Assembly: GCA_018302815.1 (NCBI GenBank)
Contig: JAGVZE010000015.1
Span: forward strand, 2,328 to 66,327
Direction: 5' to 3'
DNA from: Candidatus Woesearchaeota archaeon
GTDB lineage: Archaea > Nanobdellota > Nanobdellia > Woesearchaeales > ARS49
DNA length: 64,000 nucleotides
The notes under the pieces were generated by a model, which was given only the letters and a program-made list of their open reading frames with translations, was not told where the DNA came from and did no database searches. The translations under genes and the position numbers were made by a program. Each line of letters opens with the position of its first letter. Positions within the stretch are counted from its first letter, which is position 1. Shown here in pieces: positions 5,338 to 59,601 of the stretch.

Positions 5338-6522
5338 ATGGAAAATATTCTTCTTAATTTTTTAGTACCACTCACCATTCTATTCTTTGTGCCGAAAATA
5401 ATTTTCAGGCTTTATTCCATACCTTTTCCAATAACTGAAATAGTGCTCGGCATCACAATTGGAAGCGTATTTCCCGGTTTTTTCGCGCAAGATGATATCC
5501 TTCAAGTCATATCTACTCTTGGAATAATAACTCTCTTCGTTCATTCTGGAATGGAAGTGGACCTTCATTTCATCCTACGAAGGAAGCGCTTTTTCATCGA
5601 GAATATCCTTCGAAGTATGGTTGTAATAACTCTAGTTGCGGTGCTCATAAAATATTTGTTCAAGACTTCCCTGATAATAGGATTTGTCGCGTCCCTTGGA
5701 TTCACAACACCTTCGGCAAGTTATATTTTTTCCATGCTCAGGCTGGAATCAAACAAACTTAAAAATTGGATAGGGGGCAAAGCCATAGCAGGAGAACTCC
5801 TTGCACTCATAATGGTCGTCGTATTGCTCAACATATCGAAACCTGTCAAACTCGCAATATCACTTGCAGCGGTAATATTGCTGGTGACGCTATTGCCATT
5901 CGTTCTGCGCGCGATTTACCGAATTGTATTCAGTAAACTCATAGGCCAAGAGTTCTCATTCATTTTTGTAGTCGCGGTGATATCCGCTTTCGTCACAGAG
6001 ATGCTAGGACTCCATTTCCTCTTTGGCGCGTTTCTTGCAGGCATCGTCTCGCGTGAATTCGTGCATCATCTTGTAAAAGCGAAGGAATATAAGCACGTCA
6101 CCGTAGAAACCGGCCAGCAGATAATCGAAGGCTTCTCTTATTTTGCCATACTCTTCGCCCCTTTCTATTTTTTCTCAGTTGGTCTTACACTAAGTTCCCA
6201 AGACATATCTTTTCCCCTTGTTCTTTCAACAATAGCGCTAGGGCTTGGAATTTTGGCTGTGCGCGTGCTTTTCATAGTCCTTCATCGACGTTCAAGAATA
6301 CAAGAACCAAGAGCGCGCAGTTTCCAAATATCGGTCGCAATACTTCCAACATTATTCTTTTCATTCGTCATAGCGGAGATACTTAGAACAAACTTTGAAG
6401 CAGATGTTTTACTATTTAATACGCTCATGGTATATGGACTTGTGAGCACAATAGTCGGATTCGTCCTACAAAGAATCACGACCTTAAAACGTCGTTTTAA
6501 ATCAATAAAAATACAATCGTAA
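5338..6522 (+). CDS. cation:proton antiporter (CPA family, Na+/H+ exchanger-like)
   Basis: About 12 TM helices. N-terminal region (ITEIVLGITIGSVFPGF...GMEVDL) is typical of CPA1/CPA2 exchangers. Paralogous to 7861..9042. Confidence 0.65.
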   Translation: MENILLNFLVPLTILFFVPKIIFRLYSIPFPITEIVLGITIGSVFPGFFAQDDILQVISTLGIITLFVHSGMEVDLHFILRRKRFFIENILRSMVVITLVAVLIKYLFKTSLIIGFVASLGFTTPSASYIFSMLRLESNKLKNWIGGKAIAGELLALIMVVVLLNISKPVKLAISLAAVILLVTLLPFVLRAIYRIVFSKLIGQEFSFIFVVAVISAFVTEMLGLHFLFGAFLAGIVSREFVHHLVKAKEYKHVTVETGQQIIEGFSYFAILFAPFYFFSVGLTLSSQDISFPLVLSTIALGLGILAVRVLFIVLHRRSRIQEPRARSFQISVAILPTLFFSFVIAEILRTNFEADVLLFNTLMVYGLVSTIVGFVLQRITTLKRRFKSIKIQS

Positions 6523-7130: not shown

Positions 7131-7220
7131 ACCCTGATTTGAACATCTGCGGACTGCTAGGCAGTCCTTGACATCAAAATTCTCGCGCCGCTCGAATTTC
7201 GATGAATCCGGGTGGCCGCG
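7131..7220 (+). repeat. tRNA-Ser(TGA)-attached structured repeat unit (inverted T-loop copy ... 7-bp hairpin ... direct copy of tRNA 3' terminus)
   Basis: 7131-7147 ACCCTGATTTGAACATC is the reverse complement of the tRNA T-loop/3' T-stem (14 of 15 nt). GGACTGCTAGGCAGTCC is a perfect 7-bp hairpin. 7204-7220 AATCCGGGTGGCCGCGT repeats the last 17 nt of the adjacent tRNA. The module 7137-7173 is homologous (inverted) to 22408-22444 at the tRNA-Glu locus. Confidence 0.6.
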
Positions 7221-7860: not shown

Positions 7861-9042
7861 TCACTTCTTTTTGAGTAAATGCCTTAACATGAAGGGGGAT
7901 ATAAGCGTTGAAATAAGCGCCATGAAAATCAGCGAAGAGAATACTTGGGAAGATATGACTCCTGCGGTTAATGCAAATTGCGCTATAACGAGTTCAGTAT
8001 CGCCTTTCGCGTTCATCGCCCATCCTGCAATCCACGCCTCGTTCCAGTTGTGATATGATAAAACATACCCTGTCGCGCTTCCTACTACGGTGCCTGCAAT
8101 GGAGAGCAAAGTTATCACAATGCCAAAAGTCAGGTTCTGCCAAATCGCCAAGATATTAGTTTGGAATCCCACGTGGAAGAAGAAAAACGGAACAATAAAT
8201 CCGAACGCGAGCGTGTGCATCGAGTGAGTAATTTCCGCCTTCTCCCAGGGCCTATGGCCCTTATCTTTCAAAAGAACCTGACGCCAGATAACTCCGCTGA
8301 ATAACGCTCCGATAAGCGCGCCTATGCCTAAAATTTCGGCAAGGGAAGCCATGAACAAAGTGATTATCAGCGCGGCGGTGAATAACTGGGCTCGTTCAGG
8401 CTGCTGTTCCACAAGATACAATACAAAGGGGATGGCCCACAATCTGAACGCTACGACGAGAATCGCGAATAGAACCACTCCTGATGCGAGCTGAGCGATA
8501 GATGTGTGCATAACGCTTGTTTCGAGAACAGTGAGGACACTGGTAATTAGAAACAATTCCACAATATCATCAAACGATCCTGCGCTCACTATGAGCGCGC
8601 CAAGACGCGTGCGAAGCTTACCAAACTCTTCCATGAGGTCAAGAGCTATTGCAGTCGCGCTAACGCTCATACACACTCCAACAATCAGGCTCGTGCCATA
8701 TTCCATCCCGAATACATATCTGCTGGCCACAAATCCCAAGCTAAGCGGAAGAATAGTATTGAAAAATGAAATCCACCAAGAAGGCACTATCTCTTTGGTA
8801 ATTTGGCGCAGGTCTATTTGAATGCCAACAAAAAACAAAAGCAATATGGCTCCGATATCCGCTAAAAATCCTATCAGCCACGCGCTCTCCTGAGTGAAAA
8901 GGACATCTTTCAAAAACGGAATGCCGAATATCATCCCTGCAATTATATGGCTCACCACTCTTGGCACTTTAACTATCCTTAGAATCTCAGATAGGAAGAA
9001 CATCGCCGCGAGAGCGAGCAATAAGGTTACTATAGTGTTCAT
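7861..9042 (-). CDS. cation:proton antiporter (CPA family)
   Basis: 393-aa polytopic membrane protein. IIAGMIFGIPFL...FFVGIQIDL closely parallels 5338..6522 (paralog, convergent orientation). Confidence 0.65.
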   Translation of the reverse strand: MNTIVTLLLALAAMFFLSEILRIVKVPRVVSHIIAGMIFGIPFLKDVLFTQESAWLIGFLADIGAILLLFFVGIQIDLRQITKEIVPSWWISFFNTILPLSLGFVASRYVFGMEYGTSLIVGVCMSVSATAIALDLMEEFGKLRTRLGALIVSAGSFDDIVELFLITSVLTVLETSVMHTSIAQLASGVVLFAILVVAFRLWAIPFVLYLVEQQPERAQLFTAALIITLFMASLAEILGIGALIGALFSGVIWRQVLLKDKGHRPWEKAEITHSMHTLAFGFIVPFFFFHVGFQTNILAIWQNLTFGIVITLLSIAGTVVGSATGYVLSYHNWNEAWIAGWAMNAKGDTELVIAQFALTAGVISSQVFSSLIFMALISTLISPFMLRHLLKKK

Positions 9043-14370: not shown

Positions 14371-17300
14371 ATGAAAAGAGGCGAGTTTGCAATAGGACTA
14401 TTACTCACACTCTTCTCGTTAGGTCTTACCTTCGCGCTCCTTTCAATCGATTCGCCAAGCCACACGGGCTTTCAAGTGGCGGACGTACAGTCATTGCAAA
14501 GCAGCGGAAATGAAGAACGAGGAATCTTCGCATCACGAACCATACAAGTTGCGTGCACGAGTTGCGCAGACTGCACTACGTGCTCAGCGACAGTAGGAAA
14601 TACGTGCACGCTCAGCGGGCCTATGAGTGAAGCAGGAACATGCATAACTATTGGAGCAGATAACGTCACAATAGACTGCGCGGGAAATATTATTACGTTT
14701 GATACTGGTGGAGGCGGAATCGATGCGGGTATTCTTGCAACAAACAAAACTAATGTCACGCTTAACAACTGCACTATTATTGATAGCACTAGTTCAGGTG
14801 CAAGTGGAAGCGGCGTTAGCTTCATTAACGTCTCGCATAGTATGGTTGCAAATATAAGCATTTTCACTAACGGAACGACGGCCACGTTTGGCATTGGTTT
14901 TATCAACAGTTCCAACAATAACACTGCACAATCGAACACGATCTTTAGTCTTGGCACAACGGAGAGCGCAGGTATCGCGGTGAGAAACAGCAATGATAGT
15001 GTCATGAGAGAAAACATCATCAATGCGCAATACTCGTCAGCAAGTAATGCGGGAATCAGTATTCTTACAAATAGCTTGCGTTCACAAGTATTTAATAACT
15101 CAGTGGATGTCAATGGGATTTCTAGCACACTTGGAATTTCTGCAGGGTTTAACTCCAACTATACACAAATAGGCAATAATGTTGTTTCAACCACGGGAAC
15201 GGGTGCATTCAATATCGGCATTAATGTTGACAACGGTGCTTCGATTTCAAACATTGAAAATAATACGATTACGACCAATGGCACTAATGGTAATCATGGT
15301 ATACGCCTTGCGGGTTCAGCGAGCAATACTAGTATAAGAAACAATACAATTGAGACCAATGGAACGAATTCCAGTAACGGTATTTTATTAACGGGTATTA
15401 TCAATAATAATGTTGTTCGCAGCAATCAAATTTTCGCAAATGGTCAATTGGGCGGTTCTAATGCGGGCATCGTGCTTTCAGCGAGTACGGGGACAAATAA
15501 TACAGTCCAAGACAATTCAGTGATGACTGCAGGCGGTCCATCTGATTGGGGAATTAGTTTTGAAACAATCAATGGATCGACCATCCAAAATAACACGATT
15601 ACAACCAACGGAACCAGCCAGAATATGGGAATTCGCCTTGACTTTGAATCTGAGAATAACACTATTAGAAATAATTTGATAGCAACAGATGGGACAAGCA
15701 ATAACAGCTTCGGAATCACAGTATCCCGCTCGTATAACACTCTTGTTGAAAATAACCTGGTGCGCACATTTAACGCGCAAAGCCATGGCTTGCGCGTCAC
15801 GAGCGCGAGCAACAACACCACATTTGTCAACAACAGCGTTTACACAACAGGCACGAACAGCTTTGGCATCGCGATTGGCGGCGGAGCATTGGGAGCAGAT
15901 AGAAACTTTTTCAATGACACAAGACTATTCAACGTTACACAATGGATTTTGGTTTCTGACAGCAATGATACAAACTTCACCAACACCACGTTTGAAACTC
16001 CAAACGGCACAATAAACCTTCCCTCAAATTTCAGTTTGAATGGAACGCTCAATGTCACAAAAGCTCAGTTGAACATTTTGAATAACACTGCGTTCATCAA
16101 CACGACGAATGTGAGCCAGTTGAACACGAGCGCGATCGTCACGCTTTCGGGGTTGAACACCTCGACTCCAAGGCCAATCGTTGATTTTAACGATGATAGG
16201 TTGGCAGAGTATTGCGATTCGCCACAGTGCACGCTGTTGAGCTTCATCGGTGGCACTCTTAGATTTAACGTTTCAAGCTTTACCACTTACAGTTCTACCG
16301 GCAATGTGACTGTTGAGAAGAGCGACAGCCCTGATTCGGTTGGGGCAGGTAGCCAGTTGAGCTACACTATAACTATTAACAATACGGGAAATGATACGGT
16401 GTTCAACATTACTGTTGTTGAAACGTACCCTTCAGGAGTCGTGTTCGATTCCAGCAGCCCCTCTGCGAACATAAGCAATAACACTTGGCTCTTGGGCAAT
16501 CTTGCCAATGGCACGTTTACTACCATCAACATTACTTTAACGGTGAGCAGCGTTCTTGCCGATGGCACAGTCTTGAACAACACTGTGAACGTGACATTCT
16601 CAAATGCTGAAGGCATCAATGTTTCAGTAGTCGATACTGAAAACACCACTGTTGTAAGATTCCCTCAGATCAATGTCACGAAGACAGACAGTCCGGATCC
16701 GGTGAACAACGGCTCGACACTTGAGTACACGATAACGATCACTAACTTCGGGACAGGTGCTGCAGTCAATGTGACGTTGCTCGAAAATTATCCTGCCAAT
16801 ACAACCTTCAATGGGTCATCGCCCGCACCCGATGCTGGAAACAACTCCTTTTCACTTGGCAACTTAACTGAAGGCTCGAGCTTCACGGTCAACATAACAG
16901 TGAACGTGAGTGAAAATATGACTTCAGGAATCCTCAATAACACTGCGATCGTGTCGTTCATCAACACAACCGGCGCAAACATCACAATGAACGTCTCAGA
17001 GCTCACAACAGTCACAACACCAAGCGCTCCAACACCTGCGCCGAGCGGAGGAGGCGGCGGGGGCGGAACGAATTTCGCACGCAACGCTCAGATAAACAGA
17101 ACACTGCCGCAGGTCCAACAGCCAGTCGTGCAACAGGCAACAGCCTCTGTCCAAAGCGCGTCAACGCAAGAAGTCCTTACTCAAGAGCCAATACAAGAAC
17201 CGATACTCACTCCTGCGCCAGAACCCGCGCCTCAAGTAGAGCCACAGCCAATATCTTTGCCCAAAACACGCAGCAAGACCGCAATCTTGCCAATAATTGT

Positions 17301-17460
17301 GCTAATAGTTCTAGCTCTTCTAATTCTAATAGCGATGACTCGAAAAGAACCTCCTTCAAAATCGAAACCTGCGCGTGTGAACAAATTTGATGATGAACTT
17401 AAAGAGCTCAAGAAACAATTGGAGCAGACAAACAAAGTATTGAAACATAAAATCAAGTAA
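14371..17460 (+). CDS. cell-surface protein: parallel beta-helix repeats plus two DUF11-like domains, C-terminal TM anchor
   Basis: Signal/TM at N-terminus. Repeated NNT(I/V)xxNG(T/I) beta-helix-type repeats. Two conserved-repeat DUF11-like domains (SDSPDSVGAGSQLSYTITINNTGND..., TDSPDPVNNGSTLEYTITITNFGTG...). Gly-rich and Pro/Gln-rich linker, then hydrophobic anchor (AILPIIVLIVLALLILIAM) and Lys-rich tail. Very dense N-x-S/T sequons. Confidence 0.75.
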   Translation: MKRGEFAIGLLLTLFSLGLTFALLSIDSPSHTGFQVADVQSLQSSGNEERGIFASRTIQVACTSCADCTTCSATVGNTCTLSGPMSEAGTCITIGADNVTIDCAGNIITFDTGGGGIDAGILATNKTNVTLNNCTIIDSTSSGASGSGVSFINVSHSMVANISIFTNGTTATFGIGFINSSNNNTAQSNTIFSLGTTESAGIAVRNSNDSVMRENIINAQYSSASNAGISILTNSLRSQVFNNSVDVNGISSTLGISAGFNSNYTQIGNNVVSTTGTGAFNIGINVDNGASISNIENNTITTNGTNGNHGIRLAGSASNTSIRNNTIETNGTNSSNGILLTGIINNNVVRSNQIFANGQLGGSNAGIVLSASTGTNNTVQDNSVMTAGGPSDWGISFETINGSTIQNNTITTNGTSQNMGIRLDFESENNTIRNNLIATDGTSNNSFGITVSRSYNTLVENNLVRTFNAQSHGLRVTSASNNTTFVNNSVYTTGTNSFGIAIGGGALGADRNFFNDTRLFNVTQWILVSDSNDTNFTNTTFETPNGTINLPSNFSLNGTLNVTKAQLNILNNTAFINTTNVSQLNTSAIVTLSGLNTSTPRPIVDFNDDRLAEYCDSPQCTLLSFIGGTLRFNVSSFTTYSSTGNVTVEKSDSPDSVGAGSQLSYTITINNTGNDTVFNITVVETYPSGVVFDSSSPSANISNNTWLLGNLANGTFTTINITLTVSSVLADGTVLNNTVNVTFSNAEGINVSVVDTENTTVVRFPQINVTKTDSPDPVNNGSTLEYTITITNFGTGAAVNVTLLENYPANTTFNGSSPAPDAGNNSFSLGNLTEGSSFTVNITVNVSENMTSGILNNTAIVSFINTTGANITMNVSELTTVTTPSAPTPAPSGGGGGGGTNFARNAQINRTLPQVQQPVVQQATASVQSASTQEVLTQEPIQEPILTPAPEPAPQVEPQPISLPKTRSKTAILPIIVLIVLALLILIAMTRKEPPSKSKPARVNKFDDELKELKKQLEQTNKVLKHKIK

Positions 17461-49567: not shown

Positions 49568-52500
49568 CTATTTGCGTCGCGTTCTTGTTCTTGCGGCGTT
49601 TTCCTGCCATTGCCGCAATCTCTTATCAACCCTCGCTAAGTCCTTTTTAATAGCTAGAAGATCCACGTCTTTTTTGTTCGAGCCTTTTTTACGCCTCGCT
49701 CGAATAAATAAGCCAATCAGTCCCATAATTGCAACGAGAGCCAAAAGTTCAGATGATGCGATTTCCCAAAGACCTGCAGTTATAGAGCCAAGATTGCCCT
49801 GCACTTGTCCTGCCGCAACCGAAAGTCCAGTTGGGTTTTCAACAGTAGCTAGGAATCCTGCCGCCAAGGTTATGATTGTTATGGCCAGCGCATTCAATGT
49901 TTTACGCGCAATAGGTTTGTCCAGTTTTCGCAGCTCTATGATGACCATTCCATCAGCTATTTGTTTCACTTTGACAGTCATATCGTCCTTGCCATCATTG
50001 TCTGCGTCGATGAACGCCCATCGTTTTGGCATCAATCGCAGTTGTTTACCAGAAACGCTAAATGTGGCGCAGTTCTTTGCCACTCGCTCGATGTGTAGTT
50101 CGGTTCGAACATCATTTACCGTGAACAGCACGCGGTCTTTAACACGAAGCGCAACAGTAGTCATAACGCTTCCTGCAAGGCGGAATGTTCGAGCTCTGTG
50201 CCGCGTAGATACCTTTTCGTCTTTCTTGCGATTGTATGCCAAGTAATACGCGATGAACAGGATAACTGCCAAAACAATGAGTGAACTCCAACCACTGCCA
50301 AATCCGTTCTCCTGATCCGAAGTTTTCCTATCTAACGCGCGGCCCACCATCTCTCCTATGTCTTTATTCAACGCTCCGGCCGGAGTTTCTCTGTTTAGCA
50401 CATTGGTTGCCTTAACATCATCCGCACTGTTTTTATTCGTGAAGAATCCTGCAGAGTCAGATTTTGTCAGTTCGAGGAGCAGCGATGCTTTCGCCTTTTC
50501 CACGCCAAGCAAAGTCACTTTCAAATCGCGCAAACCATCCGCGTTCAAGTCAACATCAATAGTCTGTCCAGGATATATCGCGAATTCCTGCAATGGATCC
50601 TTGGTTCTGAACCAGACAGGAAGAACTGATGATTCTAGCATTATCAATGAGAATTCTTGCTCGGGAGTCCTAATAATCACCTTATCGAGTTTGCCAAGAT
50701 AGGGCGTTGTGAAATTACCTGCGCTCATGCTGTACGTTTTCGCCTGTCCGCCTGCGCCACCGCCCCCTCCGCCCCCACCAGAACGTCCAGAGCCTGCTGA
50801 AGCGCCCTGTTGGACTGAGAACGCGCTAAATGCGTTAGTTTGGATTGTGAACGTGTCAGCACTTTTGTTTTGTACTGCTGCGTGAGAACTCCATGTTCCT
50901 TCGCACGTTCGCGTTGTGAAATTCCAATTCGCACATTTAACTATGCTTAGCAAATCTTCATTCGTGTAACCAGAACCGGCATAACTTATCACCAGTTCTG
51001 CTGACGTGAAATTGTACGTGCTGTTGAAACCATACGTTATTAGGAAATCTTCAACGGAAGTAAGGTCGACCCCGAGAGTATCATTGTCAAATATCGATAG
51101 GTTGATAGAGTTCAATCTTGTGAGGAGTGCCCCTCCAAACTGAGTGTAGAATAAATCGTATACTATATCAGAAATCTCTTCAGTTGTAGTTCCGTTGAAA
51201 ATCTGCAAGTCTATTCTAGTATTTGTGCTGGCCAGGAATACAGTTAAGTTTGATTCAATCCCATTAAGAGTGCTGTTAACGACATTGAAAGTAATATTCC
51301 TTCTCAAAGTACCTGCGAAGAACAGGTCAATCACAGGAACCACTCCTAGCGTTCCGTTTACCCAGTATGTGATGTTGTGCCGGCCAGGAATCACCACGGT
51401 GTACGCAGTCGGAGATGGAAGAACAATTATTGTTCCATTGGGCAAAGTAATGTTAACGAGCACCGGAACGCCATTTGCGGTCCCGTTAAGCGACACGTTT
51501 TGCCCTACAATAGGATCGTATGGGCTCGTCGTAGCGTTAATAATTGGAACACCACCTATCACGGTGATATTCGCAACGTGCGTGACATTGCTGTTGCCGG
51601 CACTATCATTTATCGTCATGTTAAGCGTATAATTTCCGGGAGTGAGATTCGCAGGAATAGTGAAATTTATCGGCAGCTGCGAACTGCTGTTAATCGTAAT
51701 CGGACCCTGAACCACCGTAACATTTCCTGAGCTGTTGTATAGAATGAATGTTATGTTTATCGGGAACTCACTGCTAGTGAAGTTCACTGAAACATTCTCT
51801 TCAGACTGGTTGTTGATTATTGGTGATTGAGGACTTGTCGTGACATTCGTAATGTTTGGAGGCGCATTCTCTGAAACGTTAAACGAGGTCTGCGTGTCGT
51901 TCACATTCCCGCTCGTGTCATTTGCTATGAATGTGACGTTATATTGCCCTGATAGGTTAGGAATCAGGAACGAAGCATTATACTTGCTCCCGGCCGCAAA
52001 TGAAAGGTTGATTATCTGAGTCGTGCCATTCGGAAACGTTATATTGGCAACAACTTTGTCAACCGCAACATTATCAGTCACATTCACGCTTATCTCAATC
52101 GTCTGGCTCTTGTTGAACGTAGCATTCGGCCGCGGGTCAAAAATGAGCGGAGGCATGATGTCAACAACTGTTATGTTCGCGACGTGAACCTCCACATTGT
52201 TGCCATTCGAATCGTTCACAGTCATATTGAGCGTGTAATTCCCAATGCTCAGGTTCGCAGGAATTGTGAAGTTAATAGGCAGGTCTGAACTGCTGTTCAC
52301 CTGCGTTGGGCCCTGAACAACGATAACGCTTCCAGTGCTATTGTACAATATGAAAGTCACATTAATCGGGAACTCACTGCTCGTGAAGTTCACCGAGACA
52401 TTTTGCTCAGACTGATTGTTCGTTATCGGCGAAGCAGGACTTGTCGTAATGTTTGTGTGCGGAACCGCAAAAGACGCGTTATATTTGTTTCCAACGGCAA

Positions 52501-54115
52501 GCGACAAGTTGACAATCATGCTCGTACCATTCGGGAATGTTATGTTCGCGCGCACTGAATTCACGCCAATGTTGTCAGTCACGTTCGCAGCTATCTCAAT
52601 CGTCTGGCTCGTGTTGAATGTCGAATTCGCAGAAGGACGGACATCGAAAACGAGCGGCGCACTTATGTCTGTCACGTCAAAGAAACCCGTCTCAGTATTG
52701 TTTGAATTGCCCGTCGTGTCGTTCGCCAAAATCCTGAACGTATATGTTCCGTTTAGCTCTGGAGTCGTGAAATTCGCGCTGTACTTGGTCCCATTTTCCA
52801 AAAACAGCTGGATGAGCTGGAACGTGCCGTTGGGGAAGCTGACATTAACAAAGACCGAACCTATGCCAATATTATCAGTCACATTCGCCGACAAGGTTAT
52901 GTTCTGATTCGTGGCAAAATTCGTGCCGTTCATCGGCTGCAAGTCAATAACCTGCGGAGGCTCGCCGTCAGCAGACACGAAAAATGTAGTTTGCGTATTG
53001 TTGAGATTGCCGCTTGTATCGTTCGCGATGAATGTGATGTTGTATTGCCCTGTGAGGTTTGGCACGGTGAATGACGCGTTGTACTTGTTTCCTGCGGCAA
53101 GCGTTAAGTTGATTATTTGGGAGGTTCCGTTGGGGAATGTTATGTTCGCGCGCACAGTGCTTACCTGCACGTTGTCTGTCACGTTCGCTGATATCTCTAT
53201 CGTATCGCTCGTGTTGAATGAGGAGTTTTGCGCTGGGCGAACATCGAAAACGAGCGGAGGAGTGATGTCTATTACTGTTATGTTTGCGACGTGAACCTCC
53301 ACATTGTTGCCGTTCGAATCGTTCACAGTCATATTGAGCGTGTAATTCCCAATGTTCAGGTTCGCAGGAATTGTGAAGTTAATAGGCAGGTCTGAACTGC
53401 TGTTCACCTGCGTTGGGCCCTGAACAACGATAACGCTTCCTGTGCTATTGTACAATATGAAAGTCACATTGATCGGGAACTCATCGCTTGTGAAATTCAC
53501 AGTCACATTCTGAACACTTTGATTGTTAGTTATGGGCGAACCAGGACTTGTTGTAACATTTGTGATATTCGGAGCCCTAAAGTCGCTTGCGACAAAGAAC
53601 GAGGTAGTAGAACCGTTAATGTTTCCGCTGGTGTCGTTTGCGATGAATGTGATGTTGTATTGACCTGTTAGGTTTGGTATGCTGAATGATGAGTTGTACT
53701 TGTTTCCTGTTGTGATCGTCAGGTTTATGAGTTGTGATGTGCCATTGGGGAATGTGATGTTCGCCTGGACAACTCCAACTTGAACGTTGTCGGTCACGTT
53801 CGCAGATATCTCAATAGTGTCGCTCGTGTTGAATGTCGAGTTCGCAGAAGGGCGGACATCGAATACGAGCGGAGGAGTAATGTCGATGACCGTGATGTTC
53901 GCAACGTGCGTCTCAATGCTGTTGCCATTCGAATCATTCACAGTCATATTCAAGACGTAAGTTCCAATGCTAAGATTCGCAGGAATGGTGAAGTTTATCG
54001 GCAACTGTCCGCTGCTGTTGATTTGCGTTGGGCCCTGCACTACGATGACTGCTCCAGTACTGTTATAAAGAATGAACGTAACATTAATCGGGAACTCACT
54101 GCTCGTGAAGTTCAC
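49568..54115 (-). CDS. giant surface adhesin-like protein, C-terminal portion (repeat modules, Gly-rich linker, C-terminal TM anchor)
   Basis: Repeated about 95-aa modules (ANITFPNGT...VTDN...). Extreme density of N-x-S/T sequons. GGGGGGGAGG linker. C-terminal hydrophobic anchor (LLALVAIMGLIGLFI) plus RARRKKG tail. Begins with the same module that ends the upstream ORF. Confidence 0.75.
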   Translation of the reverse strand: MNFTSSEFPINVTFILYNSTGAVIVVQGPTQINSSGQLPINFTIPANLSIGTYVLNMTVNDSNGNSIETHVANITVIDITPPLVFDVRPSANSTFNTSDTIEISANVTDNVQVGVVQANITFPNGTSQLINLTITTGNKYNSSFSIPNLTGQYNITFIANDTSGNINGSTTSFFVASDFRAPNITNVTTSPGSPITNNQSVQNVTVNFTSDEFPINVTFILYNSTGSVIVVQGPTQVNSSSDLPINFTIPANLNIGNYTLNMTVNDSNGNNVEVHVANITVIDITPPLVFDVRPAQNSSFNTSDTIEISANVTDNVQVSTVRANITFPNGTSQIINLTLAAGNKYNASFTVPNLTGQYNITFIANDTSGNLNNTQTTFFVSADGEPPQVIDLQPMNGTNFATNQNITLSANVTDNIGIGSVFVNVSFPNGTFQLIQLFLENGTKYSANFTTPELNGTYTFRILANDTTGNSNNTETGFFDVTDISAPLVFDVRPSANSTFNTSQTIEIAANVTDNIGVNSVRANITFPNGTSMIVNLSLAVGNKYNASFAVPHTNITTSPASPITNNQSEQNVSVNFTSSEFPINVTFILYNSTGSVIVVQGPTQVNSSSDLPINFTIPANLSIGNYTLNMTVNDSNGNNVEVHVANITVVDIMPPLIFDPRPNATFNKSQTIEISVNVTDNVAVDKVVANITFPNGTTQIINLSFAAGSKYNASFLIPNLSGQYNVTFIANDTSGNVNDTQTSFNVSENAPPNITNVTTSPQSPIINNQSEENVSVNFTSSEFPINITFILYNSSGNVTVVQGPITINSSSQLPINFTIPANLTPGNYTLNMTINDSAGNSNVTHVANITVIGGVPIINATTSPYDPIVGQNVSLNGTANGVPVLVNITLPNGTIIVLPSPTAYTVVIPGRHNITYWVNGTLGVVPVIDLFFAGTLRRNITFNVVNSTLNGIESNLTVFLASTNTRIDLQIFNGTTTEEISDIVYDLFYTQFGGALLTRLNSINLSIFDNDTLGVDLTSVEDFLITYGFNSTYNFTSAELVISYAGSGYTNEDLLSIVKCANWNFTTRTCEGTWSSHAAVQNKSADTFTIQTNAFSAFSVQQGASAGSGRSGGGGGGGGAGGQAKTYSMSAGNFTTPYLGKLDKVIIRTPEQEFSLIMLESSVLPVWFRTKDPLQEFAIYPGQTIDVDLNADGLRDLKVTLLGVEKAKASLLLELTKSDSAGFFTNKNSADDVKATNVLNRETPAGALNKDIGEMVGRALDRKTSDQENGFGSGWSSLIVLAVILFIAYYLAYNRKKDEKVSTRHRARTFRLAGSVMTTVALRVKDRVLFTVNDVRTELHIERVAKNCATFSVSGKQLRLMPKRWAFIDADNDGKDDMTVKVKQIADGMVIIELRKLDKPIARKTLNALAITIITLAAGFLATVENPTGLSVAAGQVQGNLGSITAGLWEIASSELLALVAIMGLIGLFIRARRKKGSNKKDVDLLAIKKDLARVDKRLRQWQENAARTRTRRK

Positions 54116-54142
54116 CGAGACATTTTGCTCAGACTGATTGTT

Positions 54143-54218
54143 CGTTATCGGCGAAGCAGGACTTGTCGTAATGTTTGTGTCGTTATCGGCGAAGCAGGAC
54201 TTGTCGTAATGTTTGTGA
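54143..54218 (-). repeat. 38-bp tandem duplication (2 copies) that frameshifts the giant surface-protein gene
   Basis: CGTTATCGGCGAAGCAGGACTTGTCGTAATGTTTGTG(T/A) occurs twice in tandem (54143-54180, 54181-54218). The paralogous module at about 52402-52440 has one copy. 38 is not divisible by 3. The upstream ORF stops at 54145 and the downstream ORF restarts at 54115. Confidence 0.7.
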
Positions 54219-57200
54219 CATTCGGCGCAGAAACATCCTGCGCGATAACTGTGAAATTCGCGCTCAGGAACGTCTGCTTCGGGAATGTTATCGTCTTTGC
54301 AGTTCTGTTCACCACGCTCTCATTAGTTATGTTGAAAGTTCCTGTCGAATTCGTGATAGCCACAAAGAATACGAAATCGCTGTCATTGCCCGGTATGTAC
54401 GCGGAATAATCCGTGAAAACAGTCACGTTCTCGATTCGCACGTTTGCAGTGAATATGGTGAACACGCTGATGTCCCATCGTTTCAATCCTGTGGTGTTTA
54501 CCGCCAAAAGCTCGTCATCACGCAGAGCATCCTTGTGCCTAACTTCAGCAGTTTCATTCACTATGGTGAATGGCGGCACAACTTCAGTGTCATACACTAT
54601 AACATCGTCAGTTAGGACTGTCACAAGCTCAGGAGCTCCAAGCGACGCGTTATCAGTCGCCCATAACTGGCCTGTTGAATTATAAACACGCACTGTGTTG
54701 TTAATCACGCTTGGCTTGTATTGAGAGAGAGTCTCCAAAACGTTGAAATATCTAAGGAAAAGCGACGTATTCAACGAATTATTCAGCTGAGCGGTGTGAT
54801 TTATTGTAATGTTCAGCGTGCTTTGCGGCCCCATGGTGTAGTTTGGCTCTGACTGCCTAAACGCAATCTGCGTCGCTGTGATCTGCGATGGCTGGGCGTG
54901 GAATACTTCAATGCTTGCCGGCTCATCCGAATAGTTATAGAATAATGTCACGTTGATTGTAGTGTTCGACAAAAGGAGCGGCGAGGCGCTGCACCTGACG
55001 CTTAGCGCAAGGAAATTGTTCTGGTCTATCGTGGCTCCATTTATTGAGACGTTCTGCTCGATCACGCTCGGAGAGGTTGAAGCGGTTGAATTTCCGCAGG
55101 ACTCAAAAATATTCTCCAAATTCGTGTTGAGAATGTGGAAGCATAACTGCGGATCGCACGTGTCGTTTTGTGAAACAGACAAATTCAGCCTCAATGCCGC
55201 GTTTCCAAGGAAAGTGTAAACCCTCAGGAAGCTGCAGTTCACATCAGTGTTTGAGCCGCAGAAGAAAAAGTCCGCCAGCGAAACATTCGTCGCGTTCGGC
55301 GAGAGAGCGACTTCAAATGAACGATTCAGCACAGTCGAAGTGTTAGGCTCATCTTTAGATAACCACGTGGTAGAGTTCGATATATTGCTCCCATCGCCTC
55401 CGAAAAGAATGTTGCGCGTCTCTATCAGGTAATTGAGCCAGATGATATTCGCGCTTGTCGAGTTCGTCGCATTTGAATAACTCGCGTCAGAGCACGTTGC
55501 AGTGAAGCTCGTGTTCGCAAATTCTCTGAACGTGTCCAGCGAGCCAGTATAGTTGCCTGTGCTCGCGTTGAACGTCAGCGCAGTTGTGATTGCGGTGTTA
55601 TTTGAAACTACTGAACACGTTCCTGTGCTTATCGAACTATTAGTCAAAACGTCAAAGAAGCGAACCTGGAACGGTATGTAAAATTTGATGCCAAAGTCAG
55701 GATTCTCCTCTGCGGTCGCGGCAGTTCCTTGCAGATACGTCGTCTGATTAATTGAAATCGCAAGCGCGCTCAATCCGGTCACGGTAAAGTTTGTCTGCGC
55801 AGTGTTATTGACATTTCCGAACGTGTCATTCGCTATGAACGTCACATTGTACGTTCCGGCGATGGAGGGAATGACAAAAGAGGCGTTGAAATACGAACCG
55901 CTCAAATTCGTAAGGTTCACAACGTAAATTGTTCCATTCGGGAATGTGATGTTCGCGGTGACGTTTTCTATCGCGTAGTTATCGGTAACATTGGCAGCTA
56001 TCTCTATTGTGCTTGCGGCGGAAAATGACGAATTCACCGCAGGACTTATCGCAGTCACTTGAGGGTAAATCAAGTCAACAACATTGAACGTCCTTGAAGT
56101 CACAAGAGAATTATCGGATGAATCGTAAACAAATATCGTCCAAGTGCCAAGATTATGCGATATGTTCGTCGCGAGCTCATCATCAACAGTCCCGTTAACA
56201 TCCACTGAAATGTTCGCGCTAGTCCTTGTTTGATTCACACCATCGAACCACACAAAGAAAATACTCGATATACCCTGCAAGTTGAATGAGCGAGCGTAAA
56301 TCGTGCTGAAAATCTCAAAAGACTCGGAAAGTGTGGTTCGCGCGGAATCATTGAAGACCGAAACACCGCGCGGAGTAGTGTTTATAGTGATATTGCGAGA
56401 AATGGCAGAATCCACTGATGAATTCGCGAACACACGGGTGAATTCATTATCGCTCAAGGTAACATTGTTCGGAACATCAATACGCACATACAACGTGCTT
56501 TTGCCGCCGAATGGAGCTAATGATCCAACGTCCACAACCGTGTCGCCATCAGTGTCGGTGAGCGCGACAAAATCATCATTAACAAATGTCGCGTTCCAGC
56601 CTTCTATTTGATTGAAGCTGAAATCTATTGCGTCGGACTGATTTCCATTATTTGTGACATTCAATTGGAAATAATTCCTTGTGCCTGCAGTTACTGATGT
56701 GGTGTAGTTTTGGACAAGGATCAATCTATCAAGAATGGTCGTGGTCATCGTGGCATTCGTGAAAATAGCAGAATTGACTGAAGAATTCAATCTGATCGTA
56801 GTGGTATCATTTGTGCCTATGCTTGTTCCCCCTGGGACTTGGATGCGAACAATGATATTTTTTGAATCACCAAAAGTCATGCTGCCAGTGTCTATACTTC
56901 CATCACTGTTCGTGTCAGTTAGTAGAGTGCCGTTCGCGAAAAGAACGGTGATGGTCCAGTTATTGGCGGATGTCGTGTTCACATTCAAAATATCGCTGAA
57001 CGCCTGGAAATTGTACACGGTGAAATTGAATGATACGCTAAGGCCCGCTGAGCCGTTAGCGGACTGATTTTTTGGACTGATGGCGATATCGCTGCTAACT
57101 GTCGTAATATCAGTCACGGTTTTGTTATCTCCGCTTGAAGCGGCAGTGATGTTTCTTGTATCAACAGTACCAGTAGTTGCTGAAACTGGGACATTTAGTC

Positions 57201-59601
57201 GCACTATGAGTGTCGTGAAATTGTCAGCGCCCAAATTCAGATTCGGCCGGCCGTTAGCATCGCTATCCGTGATGATTGATTCATTCGCAAAAGGATAGAA
57301 AAACGTCGCATTCCACGTTTGCGTGGAGGAGTTCATCAATTGAACAACTGTTTGATTATTTCCGCAGTTCATCAAGTCATGCGCGTAAAACACAGTGGTC
57401 CCGTTCCTAACCGCTTTCGCCTGATCTGGCCTGAACAAAAGGAACGAGCTTGACGCAACAAGAACCCCGCCCACGTTATCCTGCAATTGGGTTGGAAGAT
57501 TCGTTCCAGAGCCCTGTCCAACAGCAGCTTTGAAGTTGAGAGGTGAAGGACCTGAGAAACCCAAACTGCTCCAGGGAATTCGTCCTTCGAGTTCAGTTCC
57601 TGCAAGAGAACCTCCAGTTATGCCGCTTTCGACTGTTGTGTTGAGCGCGATTCCTCCAGGCATATCAAATCCATCACCAAGCATAGGATCAGATGTATTT
57701 GCAGGCAAATAATTGTACACATCAGAATCGTAATTTCGCGTTGAACCGCTCCAGACGAATTTCGCCACTCTGTCGGTCGCACTCATCGCGGCATCGAGAT
57801 TCTTGTCCACGTAGACTATGGCGGAAATTTGATTCCTTCCGAATGCTAAACGACCGAAATAAAAGTACAAGTTTGTGTTATCATACGTGTACGCGAATTT
57901 GGTCATATCCCTATCAGACGTTCCGGGCACGTCAGGATCGCCCTGAAGCAATGTAAGATCAGTCACAAAATTATTCGGATTTGTAAGAACGCCATCCCAA
58001 TCGGTCAGTACACCATTTATAGTTATATTCGCGGTCGTCACTGATCCTGCAGACCCGCTAATTTCAGAACAAGAAGGGACTATGCTGTCAATCACTGATA
58101 AAGTGGTTGAGCTAGTACTATTGGATCCGCTTGTATCATTGAAGTGTAAAGTGTAATTCCAAAGCCCCAAGAAAAACGTATTTGGAGTTATCACTATATC
58201 CTGCCCCGAAGTCCACGATCTTGGACCATCAAAAACAGTGCCATTTCTGGTCACCGTGTACGTTCCGCCTGTTCCATTAAGCTGCCAGCGAATCGAGGCA
58301 TCACTTCCAATCTCCACTGTCTGATTCGCAGGACTTGAAGATCCTAGCGATTGAGATGAATATGACACATTGAAAAAGAAAACGTCCCATTCAATATCCT
58401 TGTTTCCTCCGACAGTACGCTGAAGCTCCGCGTACGCCTGAGAATCATTATTGCCTGATCCGAAGAAGTTCGCGCAAGTCCAACTTTTTGAAGCAGTCAC
58501 GTTTTGGCATACAATTCCCGGATTCGCAGAAACACCAGGACAAGTGGTGTTCACCGCGGTGAAATTAGTTCCATTCTGATTACTGACTGCGATAGTGCAG
58601 TTCACAGGAGAAAGACCGGTAGCTCCCCACCATTCAATACAAAGCGATACGCTTTGAATGGACTGGCAATCAGCAATGCTTGAGTTGCGCTGAACAAATC
58701 TTACTCCGCCGAAAGCGTTCGCGTTGCTTGCCTGATGAATCTCAGTCAAACCATCATTGCAGCGCAGCAAATCAGCTCCCGCCCCGCAAGCGGCTGAAGG
58801 ATAAACACCATCACACGCAGTCGACCAAGCATTCGAAGCCACCAAGTCCTCTGCGACGCACGTCGTGATGCTTTCGGCAAAACCGGGATCGTCAGCCGTC
58901 AAAATAAACGAGTATTCTTCGCCCGGTACGATGTCCATCAATTTCACCCATTCGCCCAAGCAACTTTGAGAAGCAAAATCCCACTCCTTGCATTTGTGAA
59001 GAACAGTTCCCTTCGCCAACGCAGTCACAATTCCACTGCTAAAATTCAGAGAAGTCGGATTTATAGCGTACACTTCTTTGAATCGAGCTAATTCGCCTGT
59101 TTCTTGAACATCGTCAATGCCAATAACATCATTCTCTTCGCTTGTCAAGAACGCATCATACAATTCAATTTTTTGAATGGACATTCTTTGCGGCTCTAAA
59201 ACGACATCATATATTCCGCTTTGGACGCTACGAGCGCTTCGCGAAACGCGCACGTTTCCTAGGATGGCTTCTTGCCTGCTATTTTTCATCGTAAGCAAAG
59301 GCGTATCGGGCTTCGGATTTGTTTCGCTCGCGGCAGTAGAAAGAGCAGTAAGATCGTCGATAGAGCATTTTTCGCATTGAATGTCAACAGACTCGTTCAA
59401 ATCAGCGATTGTTTGACCGGTAATAGTATCAAAGTTTGATATTGCGACAAGACTGCCTATGAATAATATTGCAAGAAGTAAAACATGAGTGAACTTGAAT
59501 CGTTTTTTAGAATAATCACTAGCTTGAGATACTCTCGCGTCTCTTTTTTCATAAACATACTGATTAGTATGCTCGTCCATATACTCTTTTTGATGCGCCA
59601 C
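54145..59601 (-). CDS. giant surface adhesin-like protein, N-terminal portion (signal anchor plus repeat modules)
   Basis: N-terminal signal anchor (FKFTHVLLLAILFIGSLVAISNF). 1818 aa of beta-rich Asn/Thr/Ser-rich sequence with the same ANITFPNGT/VTDN modules as the downstream ORF. Together the two parts give about 3,330 aa. Confidence 0.75.
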   Translation of the reverse strand: MAHQKEYMDEHTNQYVYEKRDARVSQASDYSKKRFKFTHVLLLAILFIGSLVAISNFDTITGQTIADLNESVDIQCEKCSIDDLTALSTAASETNPKPDTPLLTMKNSRQEAILGNVRVSRSARSVQSGIYDVVLEPQRMSIQKIELYDAFLTSEENDVIGIDDVQETGELARFKEVYAINPTSLNFSSGIVTALAKGTVLHKCKEWDFASQSCLGEWVKLMDIVPGEEYSFILTADDPGFAESITTCVAEDLVASNAWSTACDGVYPSAACGAGADLLRCNDGLTEIHQASNANAFGGVRFVQRNSSIADCQSIQSVSLCIEWWGATGLSPVNCTIAVSNQNGTNFTAVNTTCPGVSANPGIVCQNVTASKSWTCANFFGSGNNDSQAYAELQRTVGGNKDIEWDVFFFNVSYSSQSLGSSSPANQTVEIGSDASIRWQLNGTGGTYTVTRNGTVFDGPRSWTSGQDIVITPNTFFLGLWNYTLHFNDTSGSNSTSSTTLSVIDSIVPSCSEISGSAGSVTTANITINGVLTDWDGVLTNPNNFVTDLTLLQGDPDVPGTSDRDMTKFAYTYDNTNLYFYFGRLAFGRNQISAIVYVDKNLDAAMSATDRVAKFVWSGSTRNYDSDVYNYLPANTSDPMLGDGFDMPGGIALNTTVESGITGGSLAGTELEGRIPWSSLGFSGPSPLNFKAAVGQGSGTNLPTQLQDNVGGVLVASSSFLLFRPDQAKAVRNGTTVFYAHDLMNCGNNQTVVQLMNSSTQTWNATFFYPFANESIITDSDANGRPNLNLGADNFTTLIVRLNVPVSATTGTVDTRNITAASSGDNKTVTDITTVSSDIAISPKNQSANGSAGLSVSFNFTVYNFQAFSDILNVNTTSANNWTITVLFANGTLLTDTNSDGSIDTGSMTFGDSKNIIVRIQVPGGTSIGTNDTTTIRLNSSVNSAIFTNATMTTTILDRLILVQNYTTSVTAGTRNYFQLNVTNNGNQSDAIDFSFNQIEGWNATFVNDDFVALTDTDGDTVVDVGSLAPFGGKSTLYVRIDVPNNVTLSDNEFTRVFANSSVDSAISRNITINTTPRGVSVFNDSARTTLSESFEIFSTIYARSFNLQGISSIFFVWFDGVNQTRTSANISVDVNGTVDDELATNISHNLGTWTIFVYDSSDNSLVTSRTFNVVDLIYPQVTAISPAVNSSFSAASTIEIAANVTDNYAIENVTANITFPNGTIYVVNLTNLSGSYFNASFVIPSIAGTYNVTFIANDTFGNVNNTAQTNFTVTGLSALAISINQTTYLQGTAATAEENPDFGIKFYIPFQVRFFDVLTNSSISTGTCSVVSNNTAITTALTFNASTGNYTGSLDTFREFANTSFTATCSDASYSNATNSTSANIIWLNYLIETRNILFGGDGSNISNSTTWLSKDEPNTSTVLNRSFEVALSPNATNVSLADFFFCGSNTDVNCSFLRVYTFLGNAALRLNLSVSQNDTCDPQLCFHILNTNLENIFESCGNSTASTSPSVIEQNVSINGATIDQNNFLALSVRCSASPLLLSNTTINVTLFYNYSDEPASIEVFHAQPSQITATQIAFRQSEPNYTMGPQSTLNITINHTAQLNNSLNTSLFLRYFNVLETLSQYKPSVINNTVRVYNSTGQLWATDNASLGAPELVTVLTDDVIVYDTEVVPPFTIVNETAEVRHKDALRDDELLAVNTTGLKRWDISVFTIFTANVRIENVTVFTDYSAYIPGNDSDFVFFVAITNSTGTFNITNESVVNRTAKTITFPKQTFLSANFTVIAQDVSAPNVTNITTSPASPITTQTLRQVLLRR

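What the first reader, a model, noticed from the sequence alone, without database searches (positions are those of the whole stretch)
54143..54218. A roughly 10 kb giant adhesin-like gene is broken by a 38-bp tandem duplication
ORFs 54145..59601 (1818 aa) and 49568..54115 (1515 aa) are one gene. The first ends and the second begins inside the same repeat module (TSPASPIT...NFTSSEFPINVTF). Exactly at the junction the 38-mer CGTTATCGGCGAAGCAGGACTTGTCGTAATGTTTGTG(T/A) is present twice in tandem, whereas the paralogous internal module near 52402 has it once. A 38-bp insertion shifts the frame and a stop follows at 54145. This is either a genuine on/off slipped-duplication switch, early pseudogenisation of the major surface protein (about 3,330 aa, signal anchor, hundreds of N-glycosylation sequons, C-terminal TM anchor), or an assembly artefact caused by the 1.5-kb near-identical internal repeats.
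Basis: seen in the sequence. Interest (0 to 1): 0.6.

Follow-up and report, generated by a model that had tools for sequence, protein, structure and literature searches.

The report
Assembly error splits giant archaeal surface-protein gene
The 38-base tandem duplication that splits this roughly 10-kb surface-protein gene of a groundwater Woesearchaeota archaeon is really in the window, but it is almost certainly a scaffolding error of one deposited genome, because other assemblies of the same population carry one copy and an intact 3,360-residue gene.

Summary
Window 54142-54179 and 54180-54217 are a perfect 38-nt tandem duplication. It is the only perfect tandem duplication in the 64 kb. Removing one copy fuses the two ORFs.

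The interpretation as a biological switch or pseudogene is not supported. Exact-protein look-ups recovered the same organism from many independent assemblies of Rifle-type samples. Two independently assembled ENA contigs carry the whole gene as one 3,360-aa ORF with a single 38-mer. One of them (scaffold_486) differs from the window by nothing else except a second indel: the window lacks 108 nt at 52457|52458. That sequence completes an Ig-like domain.

Both indels sit at the same phase of a 119-nt exact repeat shared by two modules. They lie exactly where the first unique 100-mer after the repeat begins. A de Bruijn contig built at k=100 would start there. k=100 is the maximum k published for the IDBA-UD assemblies of Rifle DPANN genomes.

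The split products exist only as NCBI MBS3148675.1 and MBS3148674.1, on one contig. The best reading is that three contigs were joined with wrongly trimmed overlaps (+38, -108).

A real minority allele cannot be fully excluded without reads (about 0.1). Interest is low, apart from correcting a public record.

The parts
54180..54217 (-). Copy of the 38-mer that comes first along the gene. Inferred to be the end of the left-hand (upstream) contig piece.
   Evidence: matches 54142-54179 at 38/38. Independent assemblies have only one copy at this position.
54142..54179 (-). Copy of the 38-mer that comes second along the gene. It is the first 38 nt of the 99-nt stretch with which the right-hand piece begins. 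The stop codon of ORF-N (54145-54147) lies inside it.
   Evidence: From 54179 downwards the window is 100% identical to scaffold_486 for 1,722 nt.
54081..54179 (-). Module-1 copy of the 99-nt exact repeat. This is the last k-1 = 99 nt of the 119-nt repeat seen in the intact assemblies.
   Evidence: It equals 52359-52457. In scaffold_486 the repeat extends 20 nt further upstream, giving 119 nt. The first unique 100-mer after the repeat starts at the first base of the 38-mer.
52359..52457 (-). Module-3 copy of the same 99-nt exact repeat.
52457..52458 (-). Second lesion. 108 nt (36 codons) are missing from the window between these two bases. The Ig-like domain before module 3 is therefore truncated ('...NKYNASFAVP|HTNITTSP').
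   Evidence: Scaffold_486 (L005 6967-7074) and L029 carry the 108 nt, which encode QVTGQYNITFIANDTDNNVNATVTTFFVAIDVSAPNV. This aligns with the tail of the five other Ig-like copies. 88 of the 108 nt share no 20-mer with the window.
54145..59580 (-). ORF-N, the N-terminal 1,811 aa of the giant protein as deposited (NCBI MBS3148675.1, J4219_07355). The mechanical ORF runs to GTG 59601.
49568..54115 (-). ORF-C, the C-terminal 1,515 aa as deposited (NCBI MBS3148674.1, J4219_07350). Its 'start' is an internal Val codon of the module.
49568..59580 (-). The whole gene for the giant surface protein. It is 3,360 aa in intact assemblies. It has an N-terminal signal-anchor-like segment, a lineage-specific N-terminal region of about 1,260 aa, Ig-like repeat modules (Big_7, Big_13, DUF4625), dense N-glycosylation sequons and C-terminal membrane segments.

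Best explanation
The duplication is a local assembly or scaffolding error in one deposited metagenome-assembled genome. It is not a feature of the organism.

The real gene is a single ORF of 10,083 nt (3,360 aa). It encodes a giant, heavily N-glycosylated surface protein with Ig-like repeats, in a Rifle-aquifer Woesearchaeota (DPANN) archaeon. Two of its modules, 1,830 nt apart, share a 119-nt exact repeat. This is the only repeat in the gene that a de Bruijn graph at k=100 cannot resolve.

At k=100 the contigs downstream of each repeat copy begin with the last 99 nt of the repeat. That start is the first base of the 38-mer. The upstream contigs end 99 nt into the repeat, so neighbouring contigs truly overlap by 79 nt.

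The window looks like three such pieces joined with wrongly trimmed overlaps. At module 1 the left piece keeps 38 nt too many, which gives the perfect tandem duplication, a frameshift and a stop. At module 3 the left piece is cut 108 nt too short, which gives an in-frame deletion that truncates an Ig-like domain.

Shown: both indels, their exact coincidence with the k=100 boundary, and their absence from independent assemblies. Inferred: the exact software step, for example overlap trimmed by a distance estimated from read pairs, or Ns removed without removing the duplicated overlap.
For: (1) The same organism was recovered by exact-protein look-up. More than 20 contigs from JGI, Logan and ENA assemblies of several samples are 99.6-100% identical to the window, with no indel anywhere outside this gene.

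(2) ENA scaffold_486 (77,463 nt) matches the window with zero mismatches over 9.8 kb + 1.7 kb + 13.5 kb. It differs only by one 38-mer instead of two, and by 108 extra nt at window 52457|52458. Its gene is one 3,360-aa ORF.

(3) A second, independent MEGAHIT contig (L029, ERZ27254752) differs by 23 SNPs, so it is not a copy of the first. It has the same architecture: 10,083 nt, with single 38-mers at gene nt 5364 and 7194.

(4) The intact product is on record on 4 contigs. The split products are on one NCBI contig only. The 40-mers that span the two window-specific junctions occur in none of the 29 loci fetched.

(5) The 108 nt restore a complete Ig-like domain that aligns with five paralogous copies. 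88 of the 108 nt are unique sequence that an assembler could not invent.

(6) In the intact gene the only repeated 100-mers start at nt 5344-5363 and 7174-7193. The first unique 100-mers after them start at 5364 and 7194. These are exactly the two breakpoints. No 120-mer is repeated.

(7) Rifle DPANN genomes were assembled with IDBA-UD using -mink 40 -maxk 100 -step 20 (PMC8204110).

(8) Chen et al. 2020 (PMC7111523) report that IDBA-UD is prone to local assembly errors. These include duplicate sequence at scaffold joins where the flanks overlap, and errors in repeat-rich protein genes.

(9) The two copies are 100% identical, there is no microhomology at the ends of the unit, and there is no other disabling change in 10 kb.
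Against: No reads were available, so the absence of read support for the two junctions is inferred, not shown.

I could not prove that the NCBI contig (J4219 locus tags) came from the IDBA-UD maxk-100 assemblies. That link rests on the organism's occurrence in Rifle samples and on the paper's methods.

The left-hand piece ends (58 nt into the repeat, and 88 nt before it) are not themselves k-mer boundaries, so an extra trimming step has to be assumed.

Finding a one-copy allele in other assemblies is also what a real on/off polymorphism would produce.
Confidence: 0.86

Rival explanations
1. A real minority haplotype acting as an on/off switch. A spontaneous 38-bp tandem duplication inactivates the adhesin-like gene, and precise loss of one copy restores it, as in pneumococcal capsule phase variation.
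For: The duplication is perfect, disrupts the frame and is exactly revertible. One-copy and two-copy versions both exist in public sequence. The gene shows real inter-module exchange between strains (L029 carries M2/M3-type sequence in module 4). Surface proteins are typical targets of phase variation. Reversible duplication is documented for serotypes 3, 8 and 37 (cited in PMC4243769).
Against: The two-copy version occurs only in one assembly. There it comes with a second, unrelated-looking 108-nt loss at the equivalent phase of the paralogous repeat, on a background with zero SNPs relative to the one-copy scaffold. Both breakpoints fall exactly on the k=100 contig boundary, which biology has no reason to respect. 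There is no microhomology flanking the unit, whereas slippage normally uses short direct repeats. The 108-nt loss truncates an Ig-like domain in the middle of the fold.
Confidence: 0.08
2. Early pseudogenisation. The strain behind the NCBI genome has really lost the gene through a duplication and a deletion.
For: Two lesions in one gene is what decay looks like. DPANN genomes are reduced.
Against: There is no other stop, frameshift or substitution in 10 kb relative to the intact allele. The flanking 54 kb are identical to intact-allele assemblies. The breakpoints coincide with an assembler-specific boundary. The split products are on a single contig in the whole collection.
Confidence: 0.04
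3. Programmed -1 ribosomal frameshifting or translational bypass reads through the duplication and makes a full-length protein with about 13 extra residues.
For: The downstream frame is open for 175 nt upstream of the ORF-N stop, so a -1 shift anywhere in 54147-54322 would fuse the two ORFs.
Against: There is no X XXY YYZ slippery heptamer in the overlap. Relatives and sibling assemblies encode the protein in one frame.
Confidence: 0.01

Closest known systems
Local assembly and scaffolding errors of IDBA-UD-type metagenome assemblies (Chen et al. 2020, Genome Res, PMC7111523)
   Same: The duplicated sequence sits at a join whose flanks really overlap. The error lies in a repeat-containing protein gene. 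The contig ends are defined by the largest k. The error produces a falsely split gene in a public database.
   Different: The window has no Ns at the join, whereas the paper describes Ns plus duplicate sequence. The second join is a loss rather than a duplication. The responsible software step is inferred, not documented for this record.
Pneumococcal capsule phase variation by spontaneous tandem duplication in cap3A, cap8E and tts (Waite et al. 2001, 2003, as cited in PMC4243769)
   Same: A perfect tandem duplication of tens of bases inside an ORF for a surface structure shifts the frame and is precisely revertible.
   Different: In pneumococcus both states were shown in clonal cultures, with measured switching. 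Here the two-copy state is seen only in one assembly, at an assembler-specific boundary, together with a second lesion.
Giant Ig-repeat surface proteins of DPANN archaea and other bacterial and archaeal adhesins (Big_7, Big_13, DUF4625, PKD-like repeats)
   Same: The real gene is 3,360 aa. It has an N-terminal signal-anchor-like segment, tandem Ig-like modules, dense N-glycosylation sequons and C-terminal membrane segments. Homologues of 2,000-2,832 aa occur in other Woesearchaeota.
   Different: The N-terminal region of about 1,260 aa matches no Pfam family and no solved structure by sequence. Its function (host attachment or S-layer-like) is inferred only.

Membership tests
Scaffold-join or overlap-trimming assembly artefact | The duplicated copies are identical and lie at a contig boundary predicted by the assembler's k | tested here: met
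   The copies match 38/38. Both window-specific breakpoints equal the first base of the first unique 100-mer after the only repeat of at least 100 nt. maxk 100 is published for Rifle DPANN assemblies.
Scaffold-join or overlap-trimming assembly artefact | Absent from independent assemblies of the same population | tested here: met
   Scaffold_486 and L029 have one copy and an intact 3,360-aa ORF. The junction 40-mers are absent from all 29 loci. The intact product is on 4 contigs and the split products on 1.
Scaffold-join or overlap-trimming assembly artefact | No perfectly matching read spans the junction | not testable with these tools
   No read data are accessible. This is the decisive test.
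Tandem-duplication phase variation (cap3A type) | A perfect, frame-disrupting, precisely revertible tandem duplication inside the ORF | tested here: met
Tandem-duplication phase variation (cap3A type) | Both states coexist in one population as bona fide alleles | tested here: inconclusive
   The two-copy state is found in one assembly only, linked to a second artefact-like lesion. No reads are available.
Tandem-duplication phase variation (cap3A type) | Measured reversible switching of the phenotype | not testable with these tools
   The organism is uncultured.
Programmed -1 ribosomal frameshift | A slippery heptamer X XXY YYZ in the overlap of the two frames | tested here: not met
   None in 54147-54322.
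Pseudogene | Accumulated further disabling or unconstrained changes | tested here: not met
   Removing one 38-mer restores a stop-free frame of 3,331 codons. There are zero substitutions relative to the intact allele.
Ig-like repeat surface protein (Big_7, Big_13, DUF4625) | Significant matches to Ig-like domain profiles above the curated cut-off | tested here: met
   For ORF-C: DUF4625 100.7 bits, Big_13 83.9 bits, Big_7 81 bits.

The most novel reading that the evidence does not exclude
The two-copy allele is real and coexists with the one-copy allele in the aquifer population. A DPANN archaeon would then switch its largest surface protein off and on by gain and loss of a 38-bp tandem duplication, possibly coupled to recombination between the two copies of the 119-nt repeat. 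This would be the first phase-variation-like switch described in DPANN archaea.
Probability: 0.07. Interest if true: 0.55.

Novelty: not a real feature. Interest (0 to 1): 0.1.

Why it matters
The biological interest is small. The organism most likely has an ordinary intact giant surface-protein gene.

The practical value is curation. Two NCBI proteins, MBS3148675.1 (1,811 aa) and MBS3148674.1 (1,515 aa), are halves of one 3,360-aa protein. The deposited contig also lacks 36 codons at a second site.

The case also gives a clean, checkable signature for this class of error. The signature is a perfect tandem duplication with no flanking microhomology, whose edge coincides with the first unique k-mer after an exact repeat slightly longer than the assembler's largest k. 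This could be used to flag false 'broken genes' and false phase-variation candidates in metagenome-assembled genomes.

Tried and rejected
- **Exact look-ups that found nothing.** ORF-N from GTG, ORF-C, the dihydroorotate dehydrogenase ORF from GTG, and ORF-N from ATG gave nothing in the look-up of encoding contigs. ATG-start neighbours worked.
- **Collection scans that found nothing.** The search for related loci in genome contigs and metagenome contigs, and exact 30-mer scans of both collections, returned nothing. No further alleles came from those collections.
- **Homologue search.** The search for homologous proteins with ORF-N returned only relatives of 60% identity or less. This was useful for family context, not for the allele question.
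- **Slippage by microhomology: rejected.** The nearest shared 'ACAA' is offset by one base and would give a 37-nt unit, not 38.
- **Programmed frameshift: rejected**.
- **A k-1 = 38 (k = 39) untrimmed overlap.** I considered this first and replaced it with the k=100 model once the intact allele showed the repeat to be 119 nt.
- **Module-3 junction as an old, real in-frame deletion.** I considered this and rejected it when two independent assemblies showed the missing 108 nt.
- **Solved structures.** A PDB sequence search with the full protein found nothing.

Full report
**1. The observation**

The minus-strand region 49568-59601 holds two long ORFs: 54145-59601 (1,818 codons from GTG) and 49568-54115 (1,515 codons).

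At their junction, Tandem Repeats Finder reports a period-38 array. A direct scan shows that 54142-54179 and 54180-54217 match at 38/38. There is no matching base on either side of the array, so the unit is uniquely defined and has no flanking microhomology. It is the only perfect tandem duplication with a unit of 10-600 nt in the 64-kb window.

A third exact copy lies at 52420-52457 in a paralogous module.

Read along the gene, the first copy is in frame (...APNVTNITTSPASPIT). The second copy shifts the frame and leads to TAA at 54145-54147. Removing one copy gives one stop-free frame of 3,331 codons.

There are 224 N-x-S/T sequons against 72 +/- 7 in shuffles, an N-terminal hydrophobic segment, and three C-terminal ones. 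Pfam finds Ig-like families (DUF4625, Big_13, Big_7) in the C-terminal half.

**2. Anatomy of the repeats**

The C-terminal half holds four 'TTSPxSPI..NNQS..' modules alternating with Ig-like domains of about 100 aa.

Module 1 lies just after the junction. Module 3 is otherwise about 82% identical to it, yet the two share a 99-nt exact stretch (54081-54179 = 52359-52457). The duplicated 38-mer is exactly the upstream-most 38 nt of that stretch.

In the window the sequence upstream of module 3 is a truncated Ig-like domain ('...NKYNASFAVP|HTNITTSP'). It lacks the roughly 36 residues that the other copies have.

So the duplication edge coincides, to the base, with a second odd junction 1.7 kb away. 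That was the clue that the two lesions are linked.

**3. The organism and independent assemblies**

The neighbours are archaeal: ribosomal protein L10e and a DUF7343 HTH protein. The closest homologues of the giant protein are 2,000-2,832-aa proteins of Woesearchaeota/Nanoarchaeota, with 45-60% identity over the N-terminal region of about 1,260 aa. All are intact ORFs.

Exact-sequence look-ups of ATG-start neighbours recovered the same population from many assemblies:
- JGI 3300002223, 3300002502 and 3300025323
- Logan SRR2090153, SRR2090162 and SRR3989344
- several ENA analyses

These contigs are 99.6-100% identical to the window, with no indel anywhere outside the giant gene. Most of them break inside the gene.

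Two contigs span the gene.

*ENA ERZ28563660 scaffold_486 (77,463 nt).* It matches the window with zero mismatches over 64000-54180, 54179-52458 and 52457-38917. It differs in only two ways:
- it has a single 38-mer at module 1;
- it has 108 extra nt at window 52457|52458.

*ENA ERZ27254752 k141_741702 (L029).* This is an independent MEGAHIT contig that differs by 23 SNPs. It has the same architecture.

In both contigs the gene is one ORF of 10,083 nt, or 3,360 aa.

The 108 nt encode QVTGQYNITFIANDTDNNVNATVTTFFVAIDVSAPNV. This completes the Ig-like domain in register with its five paralogues. 88 of the 108 nt share no 20-mer with the window, so they are real sequence that the window lacks.

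With these 108 nt in place, the exact repeat between modules 1 and 3 is 119 nt.

**4. Where the split version comes from**

The cluster look-up shows that the two window ORFs are NCBI MBS3148675.1 (1,811 aa, J4219_07355) and MBS3148674.1 (1,515 aa, J4219_07350), from 'Candidatus Woesearchaeota archaeon'. They are seen on one contig of 77,481 nt.

The intact 3,360-aa product is on three ENA contigs, and a 5-residue variant of it is on a fourth. The two junction 40-mers specific to the window occur in none of the 29 loci fetched.

**5. Mechanism**

In the intact gene the only repeated 100-mers are the 20 that start at gene nt 5344-5363 and 7174-7193. The first unique 100-mers after them start at 5364 and 7194, which are exactly the first bases of the two 38-mers. 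These are the two points where the window departs from the intact assemblies. No 120-mer is repeated, which explains why MEGAHIT (k up to 141) resolves the gene.

At k=100 the following would happen:
- Contigs downstream of each repeat copy begin with the last 99 nt of the repeat.
- Contigs upstream end with its first 99 nt.
- The 119-nt repeat contig itself is below the minimum contig length.
- Neighbouring contigs therefore truly overlap by 79 nt and can be linked only by read pairs.

The window equals left piece + right piece at both sites. At module 1 the left piece keeps 38 nt too many. At module 3 it is 108 nt too short. In other words, the overlap was trimmed by a wrong amount (41 and 187 nt instead of 79).

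The fit to the k=100 boundary is shown. The trimming step is my inference.

Chen et al. 2020 (PMC7111523), from the same laboratory, state three relevant things. [quoted passage not shown] Scaffolding can leave duplicate sequence where the flanks overlap. Repeat-containing protein genes produce complicated errors.

**6. Rivals**

*A genuine on/off duplication* of the pneumococcal cap3A type (Waite 2001, cited in PMC4243769) would also give one-copy and two-copy versions. It does not explain four things:
- why the two-copy version is seen in only one assembly;
- why it comes with a 108-nt loss at the same repeat phase of the paralogue, on a background with zero SNPs;
- why both breakpoints fall on an assembler-specific boundary;
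- why the unit has no flanking microhomology.

*Pseudogenisation* fails for the same reasons, and also because there is no other lesion in 10 kb.

*Programmed -1 frameshifting* lacks a slippery heptamer in the 175-nt overlap.

I put the artefact at about 0.86, a real minority allele at about 0.08, a fixed pseudogene at about 0.04 and recoding at about 0.01.

**7. What is really there**

The gene encodes a 3,360-aa cell-surface protein of a groundwater Woesearchaeota archaeon. Its parts are:
- an N-terminal signal-anchor-like segment;
- a region of about 1,260 aa conserved only among a few Woesearchaeota proteins, with no Pfam or PDB match;
- a unique middle region;
- four modules interleaved with Ig-like domains;
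- a Gly-rich linker;
- three C-terminal hydrophobic segments.

A role in cell-cell attachment or as a surface-layer component is plausible for a DPANN episymbiont. This is inference from the architecture only.

**8. Verdict**

The biological interpretations are not supported. The feature is best filed as an assembly error in a public record. Novelty: not a real feature. Interest: low (0.1). The decisive test is mismatch-free read mapping across the two junctions.

Noticed in passing
window 52457|52458: The window lacks 108 nt (36 codons) that two independent assemblies carry. The loss truncates an Ig-like domain in frame, so it is invisible to ORF-based checks.
   Followed up: yes
L029 gene nt 7935-7992 (corresponds to about window 51560-51620, module 4): 17 of the 23 differences between the two intact assemblies cluster in 58 nt. 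There L029 carries the sequence of modules 2/3 (found at gene offsets 6104 and 7319). This is either inter-module gene conversion between strains or a MEGAHIT chimera.
   Followed up: partly
whole NCBI contig versus ENA scaffold_486 (outside the window): The NCBI contig is 77,481 nt and scaffold_486 is 77,463 nt, a difference of +18. The two indels sum to -70, so about 88 further nt must differ outside the window or at the contig ends.
   Followed up: no
window 52206-52333 and 53313-53440: Module 3 is a mosaic. Its first 99 nt are identical to module 1. The next stretch of about 190 nt is nearly identical to module 2, with exact runs of 42 and 85 nt. This suggests past gene conversion among modules.
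   Followed up: partly
window 14371-17460 (+): A second large predicted surface protein (1,029 aa) with right-handed beta-helix/NosD and DUF11/CLIPPER domains.
   Followed up: no
window 49568-50300 (C-terminus of the giant protein): After the first C-terminal membrane segment there are about 220 more residues with two further hydrophobic segments and a basic tail. A run of eight glycines precedes the region. The topology is unusual for a simple C-terminal anchor.
   Followed up: no
L001 3192-3350, L002 9739-10029, L003 9766-10026, L004 9730-10026: In the loci of homologous giant genes, a small ORF of 52-98 aa overlaps the called start of the giant gene. This may reflect a mis-called start or a separate leader ORF.
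   Followed up: no
window 15478-36761: Two ENA MEGAHIT contigs (L016, L017) differ from the window by 9-10 SNPs and no indels. The population is nearly clonal across samples.
   Followed up: partly
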